DNA of 24,000 nucleotides, taken from positions 199,500 through 223,499 of the forward strand of contig CP003731.1 in NCBI GenBank assembly GCA_000281235.1, given 5' to 3'. Origin of the DNA: Candidatus Mycoplasma haematolamae str. Purdue (GTDB lineage Bacteria > Bacillota_I > Bacilli_A > Mycoplasmatales > Mycoplasmoidaceae). The notes beneath the pieces were generated by a model. The model worked only from the letters and a program-made list of their open reading frames with translations, was not told where the DNA came from and made no database searches. This document shows, in pieces, positions 831 through 24,000 of this stretch. Every line of letters starts with the position of its first letter. Within the stretch, counting starts at the first letter, position 1. The position numbers and the translations under genes were made by a program.

Positions 831-1307
831 GTGGGCTTTCAAGAACTTAGAGACAGGTTTCTTGATTGCATTAGCTTTTACTGAAAAAGATGGGGCTTTT
901 GAAAAAAATTTCTCTGCATCTTCATACTGCTGTTTGTCCTGTTCGGCTCTTCTTGGGTAGCCTTAATCTCTCTCCCCTTAATCTCTGGGACCTATTTCTG
1001 TACGTGCATCGTCAAGAACATTATGGAAATCTCAGCTAATTGACGCTGAGGACCTCTACTCCCCAAGAGAAGGAATAGACCTTCATCTAACGTAGCTTCT
1101 CAAAGAGAATTAGGGTACTTGCAAGTAGGTCTAAATGGTTGAGGAAGTCTCGGTAAAGTGGCTAAGCAAATAGAGACCTATCCTGTTAGCGCATCTACAA
1201 ATATAGACGACTTTGGAGTAGAACTTTCAGATATAGAGTCACTAAAATCTTTTCTGGAATCAAATCAACTAGAGAAGGGACTGTCTTCTCTTTCAACTAA
1301 TAGTTAA
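831..1307 (+). CDS. hypothetical small membrane protein (about 158 aa, one predicted TM helix FLCIFILLFVLFGSSWVALISLPLI)
   Basis: Frame 0 has no TAA/TAG from GTG 831 to TAA 1305-1307 when TGA (882, 900, 1041, 1047, 1140) is read as Trp. Its stop overlaps the next ATG (TAATG at 1305-1309). No recognisable family; start codon uncertain. Confidence 0.5.
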
Positions 1308-4300
1308 TGCAGATAAATAGCAAGGACTTTCACAGAGAGTTATTCGACTGTCTTCAAACCTTCTTAAACGGAGATAGAAAGAAGAGAGTCTACTTAGTCT
1401 CTGAAGCTACTGTTTACTACCTTATCTCTTTTGGGTACTTCAAGAAGGCAGAGAAGTTTCCTAAGTTACAAGATACATGGTTGCTAGAGTGAAAGACTAA
1501 GTCTTCTGAGGCCAGGAGAGGTTATGCGAAGAGACTAGACGAGTATCTCTATGTTCTTGCTAAGGAAAAAGACTTCAAGGAGCCTTTAATCAACCTCGAC
1601 GCTCTAGAACTAGGAAAGCAGTATAAGACAACACAACTAGAGAAGGAGTTAGAGGTACTTAAGGGCATAGATGTAGATGATCTTGTTCCCTCAGAGGATG
1701 TTGAGTTCCCTGAAATCAAGAAAAGGGCTAAGACCAAGAAGGAGGTAAAGATAGTTGAGGAAGAAGATGAAGGAGAGTTAGAGGAAGTTGTAGTAACCCT
1801 AAAGAAGTCTAAGAAGGAACTTAAGTTAAAGGTTGCCGATTTAGAAGCTGAAGCTGCTCAACAAAAGTTTAAAGAAGAAAAAGAATCAGAAAAAAGTACA
1901 GACAGCTTAGAGGGGAAAGAGAAAGACAGTAAGTCAGAATCAGAAGATTCAAGTTCCAAGGAAGATCAGCAAACAACTAGCGAATCCAAAGAGACAACAG
2001 ATTCTGCAGCAGTTGATGAAAAGCTTAGAGAGATCTCTAGCAAGCTAGATAAGTTAGTTAAGGAGTTTCCTGCAGCTGAACGAAAGAAGGCAGAGGTAGT
2101 TGAAGAGTCTATTGCTCCTGCAGAAAGACAGGCTCAAGAAGTTTTTCAAGATGATGTCTCTGAATCTTCGCTAAGGCTCCAAAAAGAGTTCAAGGAGATC
2201 GAGTCAAAGACAGATGACAAGAGGCAGTTGTCGGCTCACTTTGAGTCACCAGAACAGTTATTTAGCAGAGAGTTTTTAGGAGGTCGACCAGAGAGAGGAA
2301 GAGAATTCTCTAGCGTTCTACTAGATAAGACGAGAGAGAGTGATAAGTCTGTCTTTGACTTCATTCCTTCACCTGAAAAGGACTACACCAGTTGACTGAA
2401 GAATATGCCTAAAGACAAAGCTAGGGCTAAGTTTTTTAATCCTCACTATCCCCTGTCGTCAGTTGTAGAACTAAATAATTCTCATCACTTTTGGGCCTTA
2501 ATCTCCCCCCAATACAACACTGTAGATGCTTTTGCGCTTCAACTTAAGGAGTTTTATAGGTCATTAAGTCCATTCAAACTAGATCAACTAATAGAGAAGC
2601 AAGAGACTACAGGAAGAGTCACTCTCTGAGAAGAATTAGGCAAACAATCTGGTTTAAGTAGCTATGACGGCTCTGAGAATAACTTCAAGAAACTGCTTGA
2701 TGAAAAGATAAAAGAGCTTAAGTCTAAGAACGATGATCTGACAAGATACCTGACTACTCTGAAAGAACAGCTACAGGCGGAAGGAAAGCAGCCAGAGTCG
2801 AATGTGATGTACCTACATTCAATGAAGGAAAAGAGACAGATTCTTACAGAGATAGAACATACATTCAAGGTATTGAGGGAATACTCAACCAAAATAGGAG
2901 AGTTTTCGGCAACCCATCAGGGATTTAAGGCTAATTTCTATATTTCTATCTTTGGGTCTGAAGCTATTCTCTCCCAATATGACTCCTTGATCTGTAGTTC
3001 CCTACTAGACCTAAATGATCAACTGAATGAGATTGTCTACTACCAAAAAGAGATCGAAAGAGTCCTCTTTGAAAGATTGAGTGCGTTACATAAAGCCAGA
3101 AAGGCAGAGATTAAGTTAGAGTTTCTCTCTTCAGATCAACAGTTTTCTAAGTTAGTACTTCGTAAGTTAACAGAGTCTCAACGAGAAGAGAGAAATAGGG
3201 AACTTAAGAGACTGGAGATTCAAGGTTCGTTAGAGCTATCTAAGGCCAATATACAAAAGCAAATAAATCAGGAGAAGGCAAAGCTCTCTAGGTACCTAGA
3301 AAAGCTAAATAAGACTCCCTATATTGCTGACTATGAGGAACAATCTAGAAGCCTTAGAGAGAAAAAAGCAGCCTTCAATCAAAAGGTTGAAGACTACAGG
3401 GAAGAAATTTATGCTCTGAAGCTACAAGTTGAGAGCGCTGAGAGACAGTATTCGTCCTTTATCTCTGACCTAAGAGAGAAGATCTTGGAGTTCCAAAAAG
3501 AAGTTAGCGTTGCTTACTCTGATCATCTTTCTCTGATGAACTCTTCTGTTAATCAAATCTGGACCGATTGAGCCAATCAAGGTATTGACTACATAGAGCG
3601 AATACTCTCTCGAAAGAAGAAGTTAGTGAAGGAGTTTTCAGAGATTGTTGTTCTGAAGTTGAAGACGATGTATGCGGCTCAAGATAAGTTGTTAGAGGAG
3701 TCTAGAAGGAGAAAGCAAGAATGAGAGAGAGTCTACAGAGAGATGGTTGATGAATTTAAGACACTAGGCTATTACCTCGTTAATCCTAAGCCTTCTGAGT
3801 ACTACTACAAGCACTTTCCTAAGCTGGATAAGTCCCACTTTGAGTTAAGTCCTGAGATAAAGAAGCTTCTGTACTATAGACCTTCTCTGAAGTACACAAC
3901 TCCTAAGGTCAATGAATTAATAGGGTTATCGCCCAAGATAGTCAATGACGAAGACTTTCTTGTATTGGACCAAGTTTGAACTACTTTAACACCTATTCAG
4001 GAGCACAAGTTAAGGGAGAAGATAGCCAGAGACAACAAGCTACAAGATCAAAAGAGAATCGATCAATTACTTCAGAAGGCTAAGGACGAGTTGCAGGTTC
4101 GACTAAGTGACAAGCACTATACCTTCAAGACCCTCATTATGGAGAAGAATTTTCCTCAAGAAGCTGATGAAGAGGAAAGATACAGGAGATTGAAGCAATT
4201 TGAGAAGGCACAGTTTCACAATTGGAAGGAGACTCACTTTACCTCCTCGGAGATGAGATACAAGTTCAACAATATGCTCACCAGCCTTGCAAAGAAAACA

Positions 4301-4942
4301 TTTACCTTAAAGGGAGTTGAGACTTGAGGAAATCAAATCAACATCAGCGATAAGGGGAAGATGCCAGACCCTGATCTTGTCGAGAAACTCTCCGAATGGG
4401 ACTACTTCATGAAGACCAAGGAGATACTTACGTTGATAGAGCCTTACTCTGTTTCTGCATTTAAGGTAGATGAAACAGAACTTTATGAGATTGAAGATGA
4501 AGGTTATCTATCTATTCTTGAGGCCCTAGAGGAGAGGGCTGATGCTAGGAGAAAAGATGAAAAACCTCTTAAGAAACCAACTATGCCTGCTCTTGAAGAT
4601 TGGGCAAAGCTAAACCTAAAGAGATATAGGGAGGAAAAGAAGAGGATTGACATCATTGAGGTAAAAGAAGGACTGCTAGCTCTAGAGAAGGAAATTGCTA
4701 CCCTACAGAAGGCTTCTGGTAACTACAAAGAAGCTTGTGATATCGAAATGGCTAGAAGAGAAACTCTATTTGCAGATATGCAGAAGGAACTCAGTGAGTT
4801 GCAGAATTACCTAGAATCTGAAGAAAGGGAATTAAATGAAATCTTTACGAAGTCATCAGACATGATCGAGATGAGTTTTGAAGAATTGGATAAAAAATTA
4901 GAAGAGAGAAGAAAGAGAGCAGAAGAATATAAGAGAAAATAG
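1307..4942 (+). CDS. large (1211 aa) Glu/Lys-rich coiled-coil protein of unknown function, with an acidic Ser/Glu-rich low-complexity segment around 1880-2010
   Basis: Six track fragments (1307, 2405, 2804, 3743, 4091, 4361) share one frame. I walked the gaps codon by codon and found only TGA (1490, 2393, 2627, 3569, 3722, 3977, 4325), no TAA/TAG, until TAG 4940-4942. Heptad-like E/K/L-rich sequence throughout. No TM segment or nucleotide-binding motif seen. Confidence 0.75.
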
Positions 4943-5155: not shown

Positions 5156-5764
5156 ATGTCTAGATATCTAGGACCTATGTACAAGAAGGCTAGACAGTAT
5201 GGATTCTCCTTTTATGAAGACGGAAGGGAATTTGCTAAGGGAAAGCAGCGAGACTATCCTCCAGGACAACACGGACCTACTAAGTTCAAAAAAACAAGCT
5301 TACACGGCGAACAACTTAGAGAAAAGCAAAAGATGGCCCTACTCTATGGTCTTAGAGAAAAGCAGATGAGAAGACTATTTTCGATTGCCCAAAAGATGGA
5401 AGGTTCTCTAGCCTTTAACTTCCTTCTCTTGTTGGAAAGTAAGTTAGATAACTTAGTCTATAGGGCTGGAATGGCTAACACTAGACGTGCAGCAAGACAG
5501 CTGGTGTCTCACGGTCACATTCTCCTCAATGGAAGAAAAGTAGATATACCTTCCTACATAGTCTCTCCTAATTCTGTGATTGAAGTAGCCAGAAAGAGTA
5601 TTAACTTACCTGTCGTTAACTACTACGAAAACTTTATCCCTCTACCCTTTATGGAACTAGAAACCAGATATAAAGCTAAGTATGTAAGACATCCTCTCAG
5701 ATCTGAGTTAAACCTAGACCTCAATGAGGTATCAGTAACTGAGTGGTATAAGAGATACACATAG
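5156..5764 (+). CDS. rpsD: 30S ribosomal protein S4
   Basis: MSRYLGPMYKKARQYG.., S4 RNA-binding domain LDNLVYRAGMANTRRAARQLVSHGHILLNGRKVDIPSY. Intact ORF in the track. Confidence 0.95.
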   Translation: MSRYLGPMYKKARQYGFSFYEDGREFAKGKQRDYPPGQHGPTKFKKTSLHGEQLREKQKMALLYGLREKQMRRLFSIAQKMEGSLAFNFLLLLESKLDNLVYRAGMANTRRAARQLVSHGHILLNGRKVDIPSYIVSPNSVIEVARKSINLPVVNYYENFIPLPFMELETRYKAKYVRHPLRSELNLDLNEVSVTEWYKRYT

Positions 5765-5811: not shown

Positions 5812-6732
5812 TTGGGCAATTTCCTCAGAGCGTTAAAGGTAGTATCCAATCTAGAGAAGATAGATCCTAATTCACCTATAGTTTTTTGCTTTTTACGAAT
5901 AGAAACTACAGGAACTGACTTAAGTAATGATGAGCTCTTAGAAATAGCTTTAGTTAAGTATTCAGCAGGTAAAGAAATAGATAGGTATCACAGTTACGTA
6001 AGGTCTATAAAAGACTTAAGTGATGAAGTTGTCGCCAGTATAGGTCTAGATCCTAAGAAGTGATCGAAGTACGCAAGAGACAAGCACTCAGTCTTAGAAG
6101 AAGTTAAGAATTTTTTCGGCAACAGTGTCTTGGTGGGTCATAATTCCCATCAGTTTGAGCTTCCCTTTCTGAATTCTGAGTATCTAAAACTAGAGAAGCC
6201 AGGACTGGAACTAGCTGTATTAGATACTCTTCTACTATCTAAAGCTTTAGAGGGAGGGAGAGAACTAGAAAACTTTGAACTCTCTTCTCTAGTCAAGAAG
6301 CTAGAGATAAGCGTTTGAAAGCTTAATAATGCTCCTGCAGAGCTCTACCTAAAGAACCTAATCAAACTCTGAAAGGTCTGAGAGTCTCAGTTAAGGTATT
6401 TAGAACTTGATCCTTATTCGTTAGAGTCTCTGAAGATCTTTAATACTTTTTCACTAAAAGGAGAGTTACTTAGGCAATTTAGGAGGACCTTTAAGAAGAT
6501 ACCTATCTTGTTTCTCTACTTTGAATCAGAAGACTTAATCAGAGGGTTACTTTCCTATAGATTCTGTCCCTTACTTACCTTAAAATGAAGGAAATCTATC
6601 CTGAGTAAGAGGGTCTTAAAACTCAGTAAATCTAAAGGAGACTATGATTTGAGGAAAATTCAACCTAAGTTAAGCTTTAAAGACAATTTTGCTATCCTAG
6701 ATATACCTTTTAAGGACCTAAACAACCAATAA
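5812..6732 (+). CDS. PolC-exonuclease-like protein, paralog 1 (306 aa), DEDDh catalytic residues substituted
   Basis: Track fragments 5812 and 6130 share a frame and join through TGA 6061 and 6316, plus later TGAs, to TAA 6730-6732. Strong similarity to the polC exonuclease segment at 9263-9960: KYSAGKEIDRYHSYV vs [25 protein letters not shown] vs [17 protein letters not shown] vs KIWKVWE, LDPY. Motifs read LRIETTG, GHNSHQFELPFL, NNAPAE instead of [25 protein letters not shown]. Confidence 0.75.
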
Positions 6733-6734
6733 AT

Positions 6735-7370
6735 ATGGCTGCAGAGGTAATTACTTCGCTAGAAAACCTTAATCTAAGTCAACCTGTTGTTTTTTGTATT
6801 GTTGACCTAGAAACTACAGGATTAGATCCCTATAAAGATGAGATAATAGAAATCTACATTCTTAAGTATCGGCAGTGAGGTCAGTTGGAGTGTTTTCACA
6901 GTTTTGTTAAGTGTCAAGGAGGGGTTAGTGAGCGCATTACCAAGATAAATGGGATTACCCAAGAGAAGTTAGATAAGGAAGGTAGAGAGCCTGCTGAGGT
7001 ATATGCAGAAGTTAGAGAGTTTTTGGTTGACACGGTTTTGATTGCCCACAACGGCAAGAGGTTTGACTTTCCCTTCCTGGAGGAGTCATTTAAGAAGGCA
7101 GGCATAGAACCTCCTACAAGTCCTCAGTTGGATTCAATGTTGTTGGCTAAGTATCTCATGCCTGGACTTAAATCCTATGCATTAGAAGCTCTATTGGAAG
7201 AGAACAACATTACCTACGAACGAAGAGAGCTTCACTCAGCTAGATATGATGCTTCTTGTCTAGCTAAGCTGTGAAAAGACTGAGAACAGAGGCTTATCAA
7301 TACAGGCTTAGATCCTTTTCTTGCAGAAGACCTTAAAAATTTGAACGAACACCTAGAAGAAAACTTTTAG
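6735..7370 (+). CDS. PolC/DnaQ-type DEDDh 3'-5' exonuclease, paralog 2 (211 aa), catalytic motifs intact
   Basis: ATG 6735, in-frame TGA at 6876, 7272, 7281, TAG 7368-7370. Exo I VDLETTG, Exo II AHNGKRFDFPFL, Exo III HSARYDA. C-terminal LAKLW*KDW*EQRLINTGLDPF matches the PolC linker. Confidence 0.8.
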
Positions 7371-7379
7371 CTTACCTAG

Positions 7380-8051
7380 ATAAGGGTCCAAGAGATTAGG
7401 GAACTCCTCTCCGTAGAGCTGCAAGGCTCTGAAGAAGTTGTCCTAATCGACATAGGTTCTGATAGAGGTCATCTAGGAATCGACCTACTTCAAAGAAAGT
7501 TAATTAAGTCAGTCTGAAACGTTGAGATTAGCGAAAAAGCAATAGAGTTTTCAAAGGAACTTTACATAGACAAGAAGCTAGACGAACCTGCTACCTTCAT
7601 TCACTCAGACGGCTTTAAGTCATTGCCTAAGTGCATCTACTCTTTGATCACTCCAGATGCTCTAGTAGTTGTTGTCTTAGCTGGCTTAGGTTCTGCCAAA
7701 ATTCTCTCTATTTTGAAGGAGATGCCACAAGATTGATATTCTAGCCAATTGAGGATCGTCTGTCTCCCTCATACGTGCCCCTTAAAGCTCATGGATTGGA
7801 TGAAGTCCCAGAGGGTGCCTCTAGTTAGAGAGAGATATTTCGAGGATAGGGGAAGAATCTATCCTGTCCTCTTGTTTTCTGCAGGTTTTACCTATTATCC
7901 TGATGAAGAGAATGAAGAGCTCTCTGAGCTTTCTAAAAAATATTGAGATAACTACGCTCGGTGATTAAAGAAGACTCCTCAGAGGGCATTAGATCCCTTA
8001 ACTAGTAGGTGATTGAGTGAATACACTCTGAACAAGGATACAGTTACCTAG
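7380..8051 (+). CDS. trmK: tRNA (adenine22-N1)-methyltransferase TrmK-like SAM-dependent methyltransferase; start codon apparently non-canonical
   Basis: VVLIDIGSDRGHLGIDLL, VVVLAGLGSAKILSIL, RIVCLPH and EDRGRIYPVLL align with B. subtilis TrmK (DIGSDHAYLP, ITIAGMGGALI, LILQPN, EEDGKCYEVLV). Frame is bounded upstream by TAG 7377-7379. No ATG/GTG/TTG lies before the conserved DIGSD, so the candidates are ATA 7380 or ATT 7395. TAG stop 8049-8051. Confidence 0.75.
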
Positions 8052-8134
8052 ACAATCTAAAGCTAGCTCTTTGGAGCTAGTGGTCTTTAGTACCTAATTA
8101 AGATAAGTTAGGGATTCTGAATATCTCAGATAGC

Positions 8135-11100
8135 TTGGAGAAGCAGATCTTAGAGGAGAGATTTCGTCTACTTCTAGTTGAGGAGTTAAAGCTTTTTGAC
8201 CAGAATGAATATACCAACTTAAGAAAGAAGGCAGAGGTTAGTGGTAGATTTTCTAAGTGTTGAGATAGGTTTGACGTCTTTATTAGATTCTTTGACGAGC
8301 CTCTTTTTAGAGAGCTAAATAGGTGCTTTAACTACTACTCCAAGGTTTGCTATATCCACGTAAGGCTTGACTATCTCTATAACACTTCTTCCCTTTACAA
8401 GCTACTCCTTAGTTGATTTGATCAATTCCTAACTGAAGAGAGGGAAGATTTCAGAATACCTCGACTTAAGGAGGGAAATATCATCTTTGACTTTCCTCAG
8501 CTGATCATTAGGGTAGATAGTGATGTTCAGGAGAGGTTTATCTCTCCTCATCTAGAAAATCTTAGGTCTTTTTTAGAGTACATCTTTAGTTATCACAGGA
8601 TTAGTCTCTCAGTCAAAAAAGTTGAAAGTATACCTATTAGCGTTAGTCAGAGTGCAGGAGTTGCACAGGCTCTTTTCGACTCTTCAGAGTCAACTGTCTC
8701 CTCTATGAGGGAGGAGCTTAAGTCGATTATTGCTACTCAGACGAATGAACACAAGGGGGTGTTTCGTCTCTACTGTATAGAAGAGGAAGAAGGTTACGGA
8801 GCTAAAAGGTCTAAAAGTTATCGAATAGGTTTCACTAACTTCTCCGATCACTACTACCTCTTATTGGGCTCCAAGGTTAAAGAGGACAAAAAGAAGGAGA
8901 TTTTAGATGTTCTGAGGTTAGAAGAGTGATATGAGATTGAATACACCCTCGACTCTGCTGAGGGAAGAAGGAGCAGCCGAGTGACTATGAAGTGTGACGG
9001 TTGGCTTATGTCTTGCACACCTACAGAACCTCCTGAAGAGTATCGATTAGTTGATGATTCTCCTAAAAAGGCTTTTCCCCTGAATGTCTACACCAAATAC
9101 TCTAGTTTTGACGGTCTCTTCAGCTCCGATGAGTGAGCTATCCTGGCATCCAAATTAGGTCACAGTGTCCTTGCTTTAACGGATTTCAATAACGTTCACG
9201 TCTTTCCTGAAGCCGAGAAGAGCACCAAAAAAAATGGGTTAAAGCCTCTGTACGGTGCTGAGGTGGAGGTAATTTCTGAAGAGCTACAGATATGTACTAA
9301 CCTAGACTCCCTAGAGGAGAGATTTAGAGATCCTGTTATCTATTCGATATTTGACCTAGAGACTACAGGACTTCACCCTCTATTTGATGAGATTATTGAG
9401 ATTTATGTAATTAAGTATTCAGGAGGAAGGGAGATAGATAGCTATCACAGCTATCTGAAATGTGACAAGGAGTTAACTACTCAGATAGTTGACCTAACCA
9501 ACATAACTGCCGAGAAGCTAGACATAATGGGCAGGCCCAAAAGAGAAGTTCTCTCAGAAGTTAGAGAATTCATGACCGGCACTGTCTTGATGGCCCACAA
9601 TGGCTTGGATTTCGACCTTCCTTTCCTGAATGTTCAAATGAAGCTAGCGGGTCTAGAACCTTTAGATCAACCCTTACTGGATACCATTTTGCTAGCTAAG
9701 GCCCTTGATGGAGAAAAGAAGTCTAAGTCGTTTACCTTACATTCAGTTGCCAAAAAACTGTCAATCCCTGTAGCTGAGCGAGAGTTACACTCTGCTGAGT
9801 ACGACACTGGCTGTTTACTCAAGATCTGAAAGGTCTGAGAGACTCTTCTTATAGAGAAGGGACTAGATCCCTATGTCTATGAGAATCTAGAGGGAATAAA
9901 TAACTACTTTAGTCAAAAAAGCCTAATTAGGAATTATTTCGGAAGTAACGTAATCCTATTTGCAAAGAATCAGCAGGGCATCTACGATCTATTCGAGCTC
10001 ATTTCGGCGGCCCACACAGAGTGTTTTGTTGAGCGACCTAGGCTGACCTGACAGCTAATTGACTCTAAGAGAAAGAACCTAATAGTCCTATCATCACCGA
10101 CTAACAGTGAGTTAATTAAAGCTGCTTTTAGAGATGATTTCAGCGCATTTGAACGCGAAGGAAGGAAGCTGGACTATGTTTCTATCCCCCCTCCCTCTAT
10201 GTTCCTTCATGAGATGAATAGATTTGACCTCTCTTTGGAGCAAATACAGGGAATCATCAGACAGTTGTACGAATGAGGGAATGATTGCAAGTTTAAGTTA
10301 GTTGCCAACTATTGTCTAAAGTTTCAGTACTACAGAGAGGTAGAGCAGTACAAGGTATTAGTTCACGCGAAGATCATTGGAGGCAAGAGACACCCTCTTC
10401 ACTCAACTAAGTTCAGCAATGATGTTCTTCCTGATTACTCCCTAAGACTTACCAAAAACTTCATAGAAGAATTCAGTTTCTTAGGCCTAAATAAGAAAGA
10501 AATAGATTCACTCTTCTTTAGATACAGGGAGGAGATAGTGAAGTCTATTTCCTCAGATATCCAGATCAATAAACCTAATCTTTCTCTGCCTGTAATTGGG
10601 GATGCATTGGCCCAAATAAATCAGCATGTTGACAGAAAGTTAACAGAGAAATACGGACCTAGACCTCACTCCTATCTGAGAAGTACCCTAGATAGAGAGT
10701 TAAAGGGAATTAAAGAAAATGGTTTTGAATCCGTCTTTTGATGTGCCCATCTCCTCGTTGAGAGGTCCAAGAAGGAAGGCTATTTGGTCGGTTCTAGGGG
10801 CTCTGTAGGCTCCTCTTTTTTAGCTCACATGCTAGATATTAGTGAGGTAAACCCTCTACCCCCTCACTATTATTGCAGCTGTTGCTCCCACTTTGTGCTG
10901 GTAGAGAGCTTCAAGGAGTCAGGTTTTGACCTCGAGCCTAAACGTTGTCCTAACTGTTCTATCCCTCTATTAACAGATGGTCAGACAATCCCCTTTGAGA
11001 CTTTTATGGGACTCGAAGGTAACAAAGTGCCGGATATCGACCTTAACTTCTCTGGTCAGTATCAACAGGAGGCCCAACAGTTTTTGAGAGAACTCTTTGG

Positions 11101-12478
11101 AACAGAACACACCTTTCGAGCAGGAACTGTCTCTGCTATTGCTGAAAAGACAGCATATGCATTGGCCCAAAATTATGTGACTGACAATAAGGTCCAATAT
11201 AACAAGGGAAAGCTTCACTGACTCTCCTGGAGACTAGCTGATGTAAAACGTACTACAGGACAGCATCCAGGAGGGATTATCGTAATCCCAAAGGGTCAGT
11301 CAATTTATACCTACACCCCTGTTAACTATCCTGCAAATGACACTGAAAGTGAGTGATTGACTACTCACTTTGACAAGGATGCTCTCAAAGACTCCCTCTT
11401 TAAATTCGACATATTGGGTCAAGATGATCCAACTATCTTAGCCTTACTTTCTCGATTTACAGGAGTAAGTCTTGACAAGATCAGCCACAATGACAAGAAA
11501 ATCCTAAGAATGTTTAGTGATATCTCAGTCCTAGAGATATCTCCCAAAGATCAGGAGCTCATAGGGGAGTCAATAGGCACAATAGGTCTACCTGAGTTCG
11601 GCACTGAAAAGACACGAGAGATTCTTAGGGCCTGCAGAGAGAAGATAAGGCACTTCTCTGATTTGATACGCATTTCAGGGATAAGCCACGGAAAGAATGT
11701 CTGAAAAAACAACATAGAGAAGCTCATCTCTGATCACAAACACGACCTTCATGAGGTAATTACCTGCAGAGATGACATTATGAATTACCTATTAGACAAA
11801 AAAATCAGCATTCAACAGTCTTTCAAAATTACTGAGAGTGTTCGAAGGGGAGGAGGAATACCCCAAGAAGATATAAGAATGCTCAAAGAGGCAAAGGTAC
11901 CGGCTTGGTATATAGAGTGTGCAAACAAAATTACGTATATCTTTCCTAAAGCTCATGCAACTGCTTATGTCTTGATGTGTTGAAAAATTGCCTTCTTTAA
12001 GCTCTACTATCCTGTTGAGTTTTATGCAGCCTACCTGACGATTACCAATAAGCACTTTGATATAGAGACACTGTTAACTAATGACTTGGTTACCATCAGA
12101 GACAAGTACTCTGAGTGCAAGCGAATCATTAAGAGCAGAATCAACAAGGAGAACATAGAAAAGACAAAGTATCTCGTGATTATCTATGAAGTTGCCCTAG
12201 AGATGATCTCCAGGGGAATTAAGTTCAAGATGGTTGACATCAACTCATCCCTAGCTTCTACCTTTAAGCCTGATCGAATGGCTAGAACTATCCAACTACC
12301 TTTTTCTTGTATCCCCGGATTAGGGATCATCACAGCAGCACAACTGGAAGAAGAGCGAGAAGAAAAGGGAGATTATGTCTCCAGAGAAGACTTAGAGTCT
12401 AGGGTGAAGCTGAATGTAACTCTGCTGAAATCCTTTGAAAAATTAGGGATAATCAGCCCTAGATCTTCTAAGAGTTAG
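8135..12478 (+). CDS. polC: DNA polymerase III alpha subunit, PolC type (about 1447 aa)
   Basis: Seven track fragments (8705, 9263, 10538, 10784, 11357, 11780, 12086) share one frame and join through [16 protein letters not shown]; DEDDh exonuclease FDLETTG / [12 protein letters not shown] / HSAEYD; [13 protein letters not shown]; Cys cluster CSCCSH..CPNC; [10 protein letters not shown]; [14 protein letters not shown]; [12 protein letters not shown]; GLPEFGT; [15 protein letters not shown] 8135 is the first canonical start after TAA 8099. TAG stop 12476-12478. Confidence 0.93.
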
Positions 12479-18857: not shown

Positions 18858-19430
18858 GTGTTAGGTTTCAAAGAAGTTGCAATAGCTGTTGCAGCTACTG
18901 GAGCAGCAGGTAGTACTGTTGCGACTGCAGTTGCTTTGAATTCCAATCAGGATGTAGGTGTTTCAACTAAATCTGTTACCAACCCCAAATCGGAAGAATC
19001 TTTACTTTGAAAAAAGGAAGAAAAGCCAAGTTCACCTAAAGAATCTGATAAACGCATAACTACTTTCAAGGTTTCTAAGGAAATGGGCTATGGCACTTGA
19101 ACCAGAGAACTTACCTGTAAAGCAGATAAAGATAGATATCCAACCTTACTTCTTTGAAATCATGATAGGCAAGAAGTAATTCTTTTCTGTAATAGTTCCT
19201 TTCGAGAAACCAAGGACTTTCAACTAAACGAATCAGGTGTTAATGTGACTTGCAAAAAATCTGAAGGCTCAGGAGATTATTCATCAGAGTTCAATTGCGA
19301 AGTAGTTAGTCCCAAGATTTGGACTGTAAGATCAGATTATAGAAATGGTTTAGCTTTGATCTTTAAGTTAAAAAAGAGCAGATATCTTACTCATATCGGA
19401 GAGGACATAATCCATGATGATTGGCTATAA
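18858..19430 (+). CDS. family member Z: small membrane-anchored or secreted protein with a Gly/Ala-rich hydrophobic leader and a 4-Cys domain (190 aa)
   Basis: GTG 18858 is the first start after TAA 18849. MLGFKEVAIAVAATGAAGSTVATAVALNSN.. Three in-frame TGAs (19008, 19098, 19155) link it to track ORF 19245-19430. The leader is near-colinear with that of the gene at 23750 (MIFKELAIGVLGLGAVGGTVTTVTLSNSS). Confidence 0.7.
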
Positions 19431-23257: not shown

Positions 23258-23749
23258 ATGACTAATGCAAGTGTGGGTCTCTGAATCCTTAAGTTAATGG
23301 CTGGAGGTGCTGCCTTTGGAGGAGGGTCTGCAGCTTTAGGATATTTCTCTGCCCTATTAGTAGATTTGAAGGAAGCTCCTCAAACTGATAAGGGATATCC
23401 TGATCCTGATTGAGGTAGAGAGGTTAACTACAAGATAAGAGTTTCTACTAAGGAAAAGAAAAATAAGGAAGCCTCTTTGGTTTGTGCAGGTCGATCTTGA
23501 TACTTTGCGAATCTTAAGGCAGAAGTAGATAAAGAAGGAGAGAGATTGAGACTACTCTGTGACTACTCCAAGAAGAAGACCAACAAATTAATTGAAGAAA
23601 TGAACCCCAAAAAACAAATTTTAACCTGCTCTATCAGGGATAGAGAACAAGGATTCAAAGAAGTCTTCTGCTTTTTACCTGAAAAAGAACTTACCATGGA
23701 TTCTTCCACTTTAAGGGAGAAGAGGCACCTTTTGATCTCCTGATCCTAG
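23258..23749 (+). CDS. family member E: 163-aa protein with Gly-rich leader and a 4-Cys domain
   Basis: ATG 23258 MTNASVGLW*ILKLMAGGAAFGGGSAALGYFSALLVDLKEAP.. In-frame TGAs join it to track ORF 23546-23743; TAG 23747-23749. Cys spacing 24/22/13 vs 23/20/14 in member Z. Confidence 0.7.
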
Positions 23750-24000
23750 ATGATTTTTAAGGAACTAGCAATAGGGGTCTTGGGCCTGGGAGCTGTTGGA
23801 GGCACCGTTACTACTGTAACCTTATCTAACTCAAGTACAGATGGTTCTGTGAGCACTCAGAAGAGGGTAGTTCAGGATCCTGAGTACTTCGGAAAGCCTA
23901 TTAACTATAAGATGACAGTCAATAAGGGCATAGGAGGAGAACAAAACCAGTATTTGAAATGCTCTGGCCTAGCTAATCACTTCGCCTTCTTTAGGGTTCA
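23750..24000 (+). CDS. family member F (3' end outside the window)
   Basis: The ATG directly abuts the TAG of member E (TAGATG). MIFKELAIGVLGLGAVGGTVTTVTLSNSSTDGSVSTQKRVVQDPEYFGKPINYKMTVNKGIGGEQNQYLKCSGLANHFAFFRV.. The leader matches member Z and the body matches member E (EVNYKIRVSTKEK..SLVCAGRSWYFANL). Confidence 0.7.
   Translation, partial: MIFKELAIGVLGLGAVGGTVTTVTLSNSSTDGSVSTQKRVVQDPEYFGKPINYKMTVNKGIGGEQNQYLKCSGLANHFAFFRV

What the first reader, a model, noticed from the sequence alone, without database searches (positions are those of the whole stretch)
5812..7370. Two free-standing copies of the PolC proofreading-exonuclease segment lie in tandem just upstream of polC
Genes 5812-6732 and 6735-7370 both resemble the exonuclease insert of the polC gene 1.5-3 kb downstream (9263-9960). 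The resemblance covers the DEDDh core and also PolC-specific flanks. These flanks are the KYSxGxEIDxYHSY strand, the LK(I/L)W-K-(V/D)-W-E .. GLDP(Y/F) linker and, in paralog 1, the following segment (FNTFSLKGELLRQF..ILFLYFESEDLIRGLLS vs [32 protein letters not shown]). This points to internal-fragment duplication of polC rather than an independent dnaQ lineage. Three exonuclease modules for one replicase in a very compact genome is unexpected. It suggests trans-acting proofreading, RNA/DNA end processing or a regulatory role.
Basis: partly seen in the sequence, partly recalled or inferred. Interest (0 to 1): 0.65.

Follow-up and report, generated by a model that had tools for sequence, protein, structure and literature searches.

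The report
Free-standing copies of PolC's proofreading domain
A blood-parasite mycoplasma carries two extra stand-alone genes copied from the proofreading segment of its main DNA polymerase, one still looking active and one with a dead active site; related species show the same kind of copying and later decay, so this is a real but modest evolutionary curiosity, not a new system.

Summary
The window uses genetic code 4 (TGA = Trp) and matches 'Candidatus Mycoplasma haemolamae' (contig 756,845 bp, 39% GC). Under that code, 5812-6732 (exo1, 306 aa) and 6735-7370 (exo2, 211 aa) are intact ORFs. Both are clear paralogues of the DEDDh exonuclease insert of the polC gene downstream: 38% identity (E=1e-42) and 46% (E=2e-58). 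The match includes a lineage-specific LWKxWE...LDPY linker. An exhaustive HMMER search, NCBIfam scans, PDB matches and bootstrapped trees all place them with hemoplasma PolC inserts, not with stand-alone DnaQ, DinG or other DEDDh families. Two corrections apply. Exo1 has lost four of five catalytic residues (D>R, D>E, H>A, D>Y), yet keeps the fold and an open frame that neutral decay cannot explain. The claimed PolC similarity of exo1's tail beyond residue ~223 is not significant. Three syntenic relatives lack the pair (rpsD abuts trmK). M. haemofelis has its own free-standing copy, 60% identical to its own PolC. M. haemocanis keeps only a deletion remnant of it. Two uncultured relatives carry further copies, one also motif-dead. 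This is recurrent budding and decay of the PolC proofreading domain in paralogue-rich genomes. Function is untested.

The parts
5156..5764 (+). rpsD (ribosomal protein S4). It is the upstream neighbour and probably supplies transcription for the inserted block.
   Evidence: Code-4 ORF. It is 77-80% identical to the rpsD of L001, L004 and L005, and Pfam Ribosomal_S4/S4 hits the L001 orthologue.
5812..6732 (+). exo1: a free-standing 306-aa paralogue of the PolC exonuclease insert with a destroyed active site (R-E-E-A-Y in place of D-E-D-H-D). Its TTG start directly follows an in-frame TAG, and the protein has no Met. The tail (aa ~224-306) has no detectable homology.
   Evidence: sequence and motifs; no RNase_T hit; best NCBIfam hit is PolC. 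AF2 pLDDT >90 for aa ~10-210, and the top Foldseek hits are PolC structures; 0 of 20,000 shuffles lack an in-frame stop; no orthologue found.
6735..7370 (+). exo2: a free-standing 211-aa paralogue of the PolC exonuclease insert with all five DEDDh residues intact. Its ATG lies 2 nt after the exo1 stop.
   Evidence: 46% identity to PolC 385-594. RNase_T 99.4 bits. PolC model NF001688 132 bits is the top hit; 2p1j PolC-type exonuclease is the best PDB match; the best non-self hits are hemoplasma PolCs; motifs.
7380..8051 (+). trmK (tRNA m1A22 methyltransferase-like). It has a conserved ATA start and forms the downstream boundary of the inserted block.
   Evidence: The frame is open from 7380 and encodes the DIGSDRGHLG SAM motif, while the first ATG/GTG/TTG is only at 7623. 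Orthologues in L001, L004 and L005 start with ATAAGR within ~15 bp of rpsD. Pfam TrmK hits the L001 product.
8062..8081 (+). Terminator-like hairpin after trmK. It is the only such site on the + strand between rpsD and polC.
   Evidence: This is a consensus match only.
8135..12478 (+). polC (PolC-type DNA polymerase III, 1447 aa), the parent gene.
   Evidence: It is 63% identical to the M. ovis-like PolC P0122 over 1445 aa. Pfam PHP, RNase_T, DNA_pol3_alpha and finger domains hit the orthologues.
9284..9937 (+). The DEDDh proofreading exonuclease insert plus linker within polC (aa ~384-601). This is the segment homologous to exo1 and exo2, and its active site is intact.
   Evidence: tblastn 9287-9916. 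D-E-D-H-D present; residual nucleotide similarity to exo1 and exo2, 72-87% over 30-88 nt.

Best explanation
Exo1 and exo2 are lineage-specific 'buds' of the proofreading (DEDDh) exonuclease insert of polC. Origin: an internal polC segment was copied, running from about 20 residues before Exo I to about 35-40 residues after Exo III and including the clade-specific linker. The copy landed in the tiny rpsD-trmK spacer about 2 kb upstream of polC. It became two tandem genes, either by a second duplication or by a second bud; this is unresolved. The event lies at or near the base of the M. haemolamae lineage, within the subclade that also holds M. ovis, M. wenyonii and Ca. M. haemominutum. The same process happened independently elsewhere. 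One bud arose in the M. haemofelis/M. haemocanis ancestor and has decayed in M. haemocanis. At least two more occur in uncultured relatives. How it works (inferred, not shown): the pair is probably co-transcribed with rpsD and trmK, because the spacings are 47, 2 and 9 nt and there is no terminator until after trmK. Exo2 keeps every catalytic residue and is most likely an active, freely diffusing 3'-5' exonuclease. The most plausible substrate is a 3' DNA end that PolC's built-in domain cannot reach, for example a primer end made by the proofreading-less DnaE. In B. subtilis that job is done in trans by PolC's own exonuclease. Exo1 cannot catalyse hydrolysis but is kept as a folded protein, so it most likely acts as a non-catalytic binder, either of 3' ends or of a partner such as exo2 or a replisome protein.
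For: Origin (shown). Paralogy is highly significant and includes the linker. The best NCBIfam models for both proteins are PolC: exo2 scores 132 bits against 106 for the best non-PolC model, and exo1 scores 85 against 67. In an exhaustive search of 1.84 billion representatives, the top non-self hits are hemoplasma PolCs (183, 135 and 106 bits), with exo1 at 110 bits as the only stand-alone among them; the other proteins scoring between 145 and 104 bits are unrelated multi-domain exonuclease proteins or a PolC-like fragment. In NJ trees, exo1, exo2 and the four PolC inserts of the subclade group at 69-75% bootstrap, and no stand-alone copy groups with generic DEDDh or DinG proteins. Lineage-specific insertion. 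Synteny (ABC, large protein, rpmB, rpsD, trmK, polC, recU-like, rsmH, mraZ) is identical in the M. ovis-like contig, M. wenyonii and Ca. M. haemominutum, except that rpsD abuts trmK there. No orthologue of exo1 or exo2 exists in the protein databases. Recurrence. The M. haemofelis stand-alone copy is 60% identical to its own PolC (256 bits) against 31-39% to other PolCs, and groups with the Mhf/Mhc PolCs at 82-90%. M. haemocanis holds an in-frame deletion remnant at the same site. P0216 and P0168 are closest to the PolCs of their own lineages. Function (inferred). Exo2 has D-E-D-H-D intact and exo1 has R-E-E-A-Y. The exo1 fold is confident for aa 10-210 and best matches PolC structures. Exo1's open frame is non-random: 16.5 stops are expected and 0 of 20,000 shuffles have none. 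Trans proofreading of DnaE by the PolC exonuclease is established in B. subtilis (PMC5627055; PMC12926913).
Against: There are no expression, protein or activity data. M. haemolamae PolC keeps an intact exonuclease site, so nothing obvious needs complementing. The three closest relatives manage without the pair, and the M. haemocanis copy decayed, so any function is dispensable. Exo1 and exo2 branch just outside the four-PolC crown (75-77% bootstrap). The unique-residue test shows no special affinity to M. haemolamae's own PolC. The timing is therefore ambiguous between a gain early on the M. haemolamae branch and an older gain followed by loss. The trees are distance-based, with long branches for exo1 and P0216. 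M. suis, M. parvum and several other hemoplasmas were not sampled, and only about 10 kb on either side of polC was inspected in most relatives.
Confidence: 0.7

Rival explanations
1. Evolutionary debris. The pair is a by-product of the rampant local duplication typical of hemoplasma genomes, has no function, and is on its way to loss. Exo1 is already a pseudo-gene in all but name.
For: Exo1 has lost four catalytic residues. The M. haemocanis copy is a deletion remnant, and P0216 is also motif-degenerate. Close relatives lack the pair. In hemoplasmas 24.5-72.4% of CDSs fall in paralogous families.
Against: Both ORFs are intact despite more than 50-60% amino-acid divergence from the parent. Shuffles expect 16.5 in-frame stops for exo1 and 10.3 for exo2, and 0 of 20,000 have none. 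The other five frames of exo1 carry 6-38 stops. The exo1 core is predicted as a well-packed fold. Exo2 retains every catalytic residue. The M. haemofelis copy is listed under accessions from two M. haemofelis genome records.
Confidence: 0.2
2. An ancient stand-alone exonuclease gene of hemoplasmas is repeatedly homogenised by gene conversion with the resident polC insert. This would make each copy look like its own genome's PolC without any new duplication.
For: Each stand-alone copy resembles the PolC of its own lineage. The copies in M. haemolamae and M. haemofelis lie within 1-2.5 kb of polC, a distance at which conversion is feasible.
Against: The copies occupy different loci in different lineages: rpsD/trmK, frr/cdsA, and a separate contig next to greA. 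The syntenic sites in relatives are empty. The similarity extends through the PolC-specific linker. Identity to the resident PolC is only 38-46% in M. haemolamae, with only short stretches of nucleotide similarity, so there has been no recent conversion there.
Confidence: 0.07
3. Exo1 and exo2 belong to an independent, widespread stand-alone DEDDh family (DnaQ/epsilon, KapD, the DinG N-terminal exonuclease, PRK06807-like) and only resemble PolC through shared ancestry of the fold.
For: Hundreds of stand-alone DEDDh proteins hit exo2 at E of 1e-13 to 1e-23. Exo2 scores 71.1 bits on TIGR00573 (dnaq subfamily domain), against a cut-off of 71.5.
Against: The PolC models and PolC proteins score higher than any stand-alone family. 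The trees nest both proteins inside hemoplasma PolC inserts. The clade-specific linker is shared. There are no orthologues in related genomes.
Confidence: 0.03

Closest known systems
The DEDDh proofreading exonuclease domain inserted in the PHP domain of PolC-type DNA polymerase III (NCBIfam NF001688 / TIGR01405; structures 2p1j, 9qpc/9qrn)
   Same: This is the best sequence, profile and structure match for both proteins. The motif order is the same, the lineage-specific linker is shared, and exo2 has the identical catalytic set.
   Different: The copies are free-standing 211- and 306-aa proteins with no PHP, polymerase, OB or clamp-binding parts. Their scores are far below the PolC family cut-offs (132 against 873). 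Exo1 lacks the catalytic residues.
DnaQ / epsilon subunit of DNA polymerase III (TIGR00573, TIGR01406; structures 1j53, 2gui, 5fku)
   Same: It is a stand-alone DEDDh 3'-5' exonuclease of about 200 aa that proofreads for a separate C-family polymerase. That is the working model proposed for exo2 with DnaE.
   Different: It has a different evolutionary origin, since the trees put exo1 and exo2 inside the PolC inserts. Exo2 scores 73.5 bits against a 222.7 cut-off on dnaQ_proteo. No epsilon-type C-terminal alpha-binding tail or clamp-binding motif was identified, and no partner is known.
The M. haemofelis 216-aa protein annotated 'DNA polymerase III, alpha subunit, Gram-positive type (fragment)' / 'polC-type' (AEG72455.1, CBY92142.1, UniRef100_F6FFY9)
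   Same: It is the same kind of object: a free-standing, catalytically intact copy of the resident PolC exonuclease insert plus linker, encoded just upstream of polC.
   Different: It is an independent event: 60% identical to its own PolC but only 31% to exo2 and 36% (over 123 aa) to exo1. It sits at a different locus (frr-exo-cdsA-polC), is a single copy, and has no inactive partner.
Stand-alone DEDDh exonucleases of Firmicutes (B. subtilis KapD, YprB, the DinG N-terminal exonuclease; NCBIfam PRK06807, PRK08517, PRK07740)
   Same: They have the same fold and size class and occur in bacteria that use PolC. They hit exo2 at 79-99 bits.
   Different: They score lower than the PolC models, are not the sister group in the trees, and lack the hemoplasma PolC linker. 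In B. subtilis, null mutants of dinG, kapD and yprB showed no increase in mutagenesis, so those proteins do not supply the DnaE proofreader (PMC5627055).

Membership tests
DEDDh (DnaQ-like / RNase T, Pfam PF00929) 3'-5' exonuclease superfamily | RNase T/DnaQ alpha-beta fold recognised by the family profile | tested here: met
   Exo2 scores 99.4 bits on PF00929 against a cut-off of 24. Exo1 fails PF00929 and scores 24.7 on DEDDh_C against a cut-off of 27. Its AF2 model (pLDDT >90 for aa 10-210) matches PolC, DnaQ and DinG exonuclease structures at Foldseek E of 6e-12 to 4e-11.
DEDDh (DnaQ-like / RNase T, Pfam PF00929) 3'-5' exonuclease superfamily | Five catalytic residues: D and E (Exo I), D (Exo II), H and D (Exo III) | tested here: not met
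   For exo1 this is not met: it has R, E, E, A and Y at those columns. For exo2 it is met: D, E, D, H, D. Exo2 is therefore a full member by sequence, and exo1 is a structural member only (a pseudo-exonuclease).
DEDDh (DnaQ-like / RNase T, Pfam PF00929) 3'-5' exonuclease superfamily | Metal-dependent 3'-5' exonuclease activity | not testable with these tools
   This needs biochemistry.
PolC-type DNA polymerase III (NF001688 / TIGR01405) | Full architecture (N-terminal domains, split PHP, exonuclease insert, polymerase core, fingers, HhH) and a score above the family cut-off | tested here: not met
   Exo2 scores 132 bits and exo1 83-85 bits against cut-offs of 873 and 1043, and only profile positions ~423-604 are matched. 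Exo1's tail shows no similarity to the PHP segment that follows the insert. The two proteins are derivatives of one PolC domain, not PolC polymerases.
PolC-type DNA polymerase III (NF001688 / TIGR01405) | Exonuclease domain phylogenetically nested among PolC inserts | tested here: met
   NJ bootstrap is 69-75% for exo1, exo2 and the four subclade PolC inserts. The best hits in the 1.84-billion-protein search are hemoplasma PolCs.
DnaQ / Pol III epsilon subunit (TIGR01406, TIGR00573) | Score above the family cut-off | tested here: not met
   On TIGR01406, exo2 scores 73.5 and exo1 33.9 against a cut-off of 222.7. On TIGR00573, exo2 scores 71.1 and exo1 39.3 against a cut-off of 71.5.
DnaQ / Pol III epsilon subunit (TIGR01406, TIGR00573) | Physical association with a DnaE-type alpha subunit (PHP domain) and the beta clamp | not testable with these tools
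   DnaE is not in the window and no multimer prediction tool was available.
DinG-type exonuclease-helicase (TIGR01407, NF005981) | N-terminal DEDDh domain fused to a DinG/XPD helicase | tested here: not met
   There is no helicase region in either protein. Scores are 98 and 45 bits against cut-offs of 548-789.

The most novel reading that the evidence does not exclude
Hemoplasmas have repeatedly re-invented an epsilon-like subunit by excising PolC's proofreading insert. In M. haemolamae, the active exo2, possibly together with the inactive exo1 as a docking or regulatory partner, would bind the PHP domain of the proofreading-less DnaE (or another replisome or repair protein) and proofread in trans. 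That would be a natural, recent transition between the 'built-in' and 'separate subunit' solutions to replicase proofreading.
Probability: 0.12. Interest if true: 0.7.

Novelty: new member of a known kind. Interest (0 to 1): 0.35.

Why it matters
Replicative C-family polymerases get their proofreading either from a built-in DEDDh insert (PolC) or from a separate epsilon subunit (DnaE1). Here the built-in domain has been copied out as a separate gene several times within one small clade, and the copies are caught at different stages: active, active-site-dead but maintained, and deleted. If the active copies work in trans, they offer a natural system for studying how a proofreading domain becomes an independent subunit, and how DnaE errors are corrected in PolC-using bacteria. 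If they do not, the case is still a clean example of domain-level duplication, pseudo-enzyme formation and decay in paralogue-rich reduced genomes. It is also a caution for annotation, because these genes are labelled 'PolC fragment' and break up under the wrong genetic code.

Tried and rejected
(1) Table-11 ORF calling fragments every gene here, so I switched to code 4.

(2) A scan of genome contigs with exo2 found nothing, not even the source genome. The index search with a PolC segment returned only one fragment. I therefore relied on the exhaustive HMMER search, contig look-ups and a second genome scan with a hemoplasma-specific PHP segment.

(3) Exo1's tail as a PHP-derived segment: rejected by the pairwise shuffle test and the profile HMM.

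(4) An origin specifically from M. haemolamae's own PolC after speciation: the unique-residue counts are indecisive. Exo1 shares 8 of 48 Mhl-unique residues, while exo2 shares 4 of 48 against 10 of 48 for Ca. M. haemominutum.

(5) Exo1 and exo2 as sister genes: only 5 of 300 bootstraps support it, although they share 10 residues that all four PolCs lack. This remains unresolved.

(6) Exo1 and P0216 as orthologues of one old inactive family (both have 'LNNA' at Exo III): rejected. They score 66 bits against each other, but 169 and 129 bits against the PolCs of their own lineages.

(7) Flanking direct repeats or mobile-element signatures around the insertion: none found.

(8) P0134 and P0131 as further stand-alone copies: by inspection P0134 is a PolC fragment, since it continues into the PHP segment, and P0131 is a 309-aa PolC-like piece spanning the PHP N-terminal part, the exonuclease and the linker.

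(9) The first Biopython NJ run timed out and was replaced by a vectorised NJ.
Full report
SOURCE AND GENETIC CODE. Under table 11 the region breaks into short ORFs. Every in-frame 'stop' inside 5812-6732, 6735-7370 and the polC frame is TGA, at Trp-like positions such as [12 protein letters not shown]. Under code 4 the gene order is: an ABC ATPase (63-806), a 1211-aa protein (1307-4942), rpmB, rpsD (5156-5764), exo1 (5812-6732, 306 aa), exo2 (6735-7370, 211 aa), trmK (7380-8051), polC (8135-12478, 1447 aa), then a recU-like gene, rsmH and mraZ on the minus strand. The database copy of exo2 sits on a contig of 756,845 bp. That is the genome size given for 'Candidatus M. haemolamae' Purdue, with 39.3% GC, in PMC3958358. 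The window is 34-42% GC in 1-kb windows and 39.4% overall.

THE OBSERVATION. The paralogy is real and strong.
- Exo2 vs PolC aa 385-594: 46% identity, E=2e-58.
- Exo1 vs PolC aa 384-601: 38% identity, E=1e-42.
- Exo1 vs exo2: 33% identity, E=5e-36.
The match runs beyond the exonuclease core into the linker LWKVWE..(G)LDPY..E.L..(I/L/F)N. That linker is shared by the PolCs of the closest relatives, but the haemofelis-group PolCs have a different one. Short stretches of nucleotide similarity survive, at 72-87% over 30-88 nt. One of them crosses the linker, where both TGA Trp codons are conserved.

- Exo1 residues 224-306 show no significant similarity to the PolC segment after the insert. The pairwise score is 28 against a shuffle mean of 27, and a profile HMM of eight hemoplasma PolCs gives no hit.
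- Exo1 does not have a DEDDh core in the catalytic sense. The five catalytic columns read R, E, E, A, Y, and it does not appear among Pfam RNase_T matches.
Exo2 and PolC itself keep D, E, D, H, D.

FAMILY PLACEMENT. Among all NCBIfam exonuclease-containing models, the PolC models are the top hits for both proteins. Exo2 scores 132 and 129 bits against 106 for the next family, and exo1 scores 85 and 83 against 67. The best PDB sequence matches for exo2 are the Thermotoga PolC-type exonuclease 2p1j and the full PolC 9qpc. In the exhaustive HMMER search of 1.84 billion representatives, the best non-self hit to exo2 is the M. ovis-like PolC (183 bits), and the other hemoplasma PolCs score 135 and 106 bits. 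Exo1 is in the list at 110 bits and the M. haemofelis stand-alone at 94 bits. The other high-scoring entries are unrelated multi-domain exonuclease proteins or a PolC-like fragment. Neighbour-joining trees (Kimura distances, about 194 columns, 85-100 taxa, 300 bootstraps) separate most PolC inserts from the other DEDDh proteins. They place exo1, exo2 and the four PolC inserts of the subclade together at 69-75%.

DISTRIBUTION IN RELATIVES. I recovered polC neighbourhoods from an M. ovis-like metagenome contig (L001), M. wenyonii (L004), Ca. M. haemominutum (L005), Ca. M. haematobovis (L008), M. haemocanis (L006), M. haemofelis (L003/L007) and an uncultured 26%-GC relative (L002).
- In L001, L004 and L005 the gene order around polC is identical to the window, but trmK starts within about 15 bp of the rpsD stop. 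There are no exo genes, and tblastn finds no exonuclease remnant there. The 1.6-kb exo1-exo2 block is thus an insertion into a minimal spacer. No repeats flank it.
- No orthologue of exo1 or exo2 exists in the protein collections.
- M. haemofelis has one free-standing copy (216 aa, catalytically intact) in a different context: frr-exo-cdsA-polC. It is 60% identical to its own PolC insert (256 bits) but only 31-39% identical to other PolCs or to exo1 and exo2. It groups with the Mhf and Mhc PolCs at 82-90%. Public records already call it a PolC-type fragment.
- M. haemocanis retains only an 84-codon in-frame remnant at that site. It consists of the first 55 residues plus the last ~27, so Exo II and Exo III are deleted.
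- The organism of L002 carries, on another contig, a 222-aa copy (P0216). Its best BLAST hit is that organism's PolC, and its motifs are damaged in a different way (D-K-D-N-D, with HN changed to HY).
- P0168 (312 aa, with a hydrophobic N-terminus) groups with the M. fastidiosum PolC at 64%.
- Exo1 and P0216 are not orthologues. They score 66 bits against each other, but 169 and 129 bits against the PolCs of their own lineages.
The pattern is repeated, independent budding of the PolC proofreading domain, followed in some cases by loss of the active site or by deletion.

TIMING. Exo1 and exo2 branch just outside the crown of the four PolCs (75-77% bootstrap). They show no excess of residues unique to M. 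haemolamae's PolC. Because M. haemolamae is the earliest branch of that crown in the insert tree, two scenarios remain open: a gain early on its own branch, or an older gain followed by one loss. Whether the tandem pair arose from one bud followed by duplication, or from two buds, is also unresolved. The boundaries are nearly identical and 10 residues are shared exclusively, but sister support is only 5 of 300.

IS EXO1 A DEAD GENE? Its 306-codon frame contains no TAA or TAG. Composition-matched shuffles expect 16.5 stops, and none of 20,000 is stop-free. The other five frames carry 6-38 stops. The homology-free tail alone gives P=0.007. AlphaFold2 predicts a confident exonuclease fold for residues ~10-210 (pLDDT >90), a marginal segment at 211-248, and a low-confidence tail at 249-306. 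Foldseek's best matches are PolC structures (9qrn and 9qpc), followed by DnaQ, DinG and 2p1j. Exo1 therefore looks like a maintained pseudo-exonuclease, not a decaying pseudogene, although without orthologues or population data this remains an inference.

LIKELY MECHANISM. The spacings are 47 nt (rpsD to exo1), 2 nt (exo1 to exo2) and 9 nt (exo2 to trmK). The only terminator-like hairpin on the + strand follows trmK. This suggests one transcript, with exo1 and exo2 translationally coupled. Exo2 is most likely an active, diffusible 3'-5' exonuclease. The best-motivated role is trans editing of 3' ends made by DnaE. In B. subtilis, DnaE lacks proofreading and is corrected in trans by PolC's exonuclease (PMC5627055; PMC12926913). 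Exo1 would be a non-catalytic binder or partner. None of this is shown. The dispensability implied by the relatives, and the intact exonuclease site of the resident PolC, argue for an accessory role at most.

KNOWN OR NEW? Stand-alone DnaQ-like exonucleases are abundant (more than 3 per proteome). Hemoplasma genomes are unusually rich in paralogues (24.5-72.4% of CDSs), and 'DNA and RNA polymerase subunits' are listed among the functional paralogues. The M. haemofelis gene is already labelled as a PolC fragment. I found no paper that analyses these genes. What is new here is the demonstration that they are domain-level buds of the resident PolC, that this has happened repeatedly, and that one member of the M. 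haemolamae pair is a maintained inactive copy. I rate this a new member of a known kind, of modest interest.

Noticed in passing
window 7380-8051; L001 8724, L004 7871, L005 8297: trmK has no ATG, GTG or TTG near its true N-terminus. The first canonical start, at 7623, would remove the SAM-binding DIGSDxxxL motif. In all four genomes of this subclade the frame begins with a conserved ATA-AGR (Ile-Arg) a few bases after the upstream stop, which suggests a conserved ATA initiation codon. Gene callers truncate the protein, for example to 129 aa in L001.
   Followed up: partly
L006 8057-8311 (M. haemocanis str. Illinois): An 84-codon ORF between frr and cdsA is an in-frame deletion remnant of the M. 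haemofelis stand-alone PolC-exonuclease copy. Its N-terminal 55 aa are 76% identical and its C-terminal 27 aa are 52% identical, and Exo II and Exo III are missing.
   Followed up: yes
L009 8001-8669 (Logan SRR27853839 contig 1197); same sample as L002: P0216 is a 222-aa stand-alone PolC-exo-like gene with degenerate motifs (DIKTTG, AHYGSRFD, LNNAVDD). It lies on a different contig from polC, downstream of greA. It is followed by an abutting 457-aa ORF with no Pfam hit, whose start coincides with the last base of the P0216 gene.
   Followed up: partly
L011 8001-8939 / L012 2262-3200 (Logan SRR19632910, SRR19633010): P0168 is a 312-aa protein with a hydrophobic, membrane-anchor-like N-terminus and a charged linker, fused to a catalytically intact PolC-type exonuclease domain. 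It is closest to the Mycoplasmoides fastidiosum PolC. It may be a membrane-tethered bud of the PolC exonuclease.
   Followed up: partly
window 5812-5814 and the whole of exo1: Exo1 contains no methionine codon at all. Its only plausible start is a TTG that directly follows an in-frame TAG, 47 nt after rpsD.
   Followed up: no
L001 9241-9846 (minus strand): The M. ovis-like contig has a 201-aa ORF with hydrophobic stretches and no Pfam hit, on the opposite strand between trmK and polC. The window has only an 83-bp spacer with a hairpin there (8052-8134). This is another lineage-specific insertion in the same neighbourhood.
   Followed up: no
window 18858-19430, 23258-23749, 23750-24000: Several ORFs begin with similar Gly/Ala/Val-rich hydrophobic N-termini (for example ...KEVAIAVAATGAAGSTVATAV and ...KELAIGVLGLGAVGGTVTTV). 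They look like members of the hypothetical paralogous gene families typical of hemoplasmas.
   Followed up: no
protein searches: The word-indexed protein search did not return the window's own PolC or any other full-length PolC, even for a query made of the PolC exonuclease region. The exhaustive HMMER search did return them. Negative results from the indexed search for long proteins should be treated with caution.
   Followed up: partly
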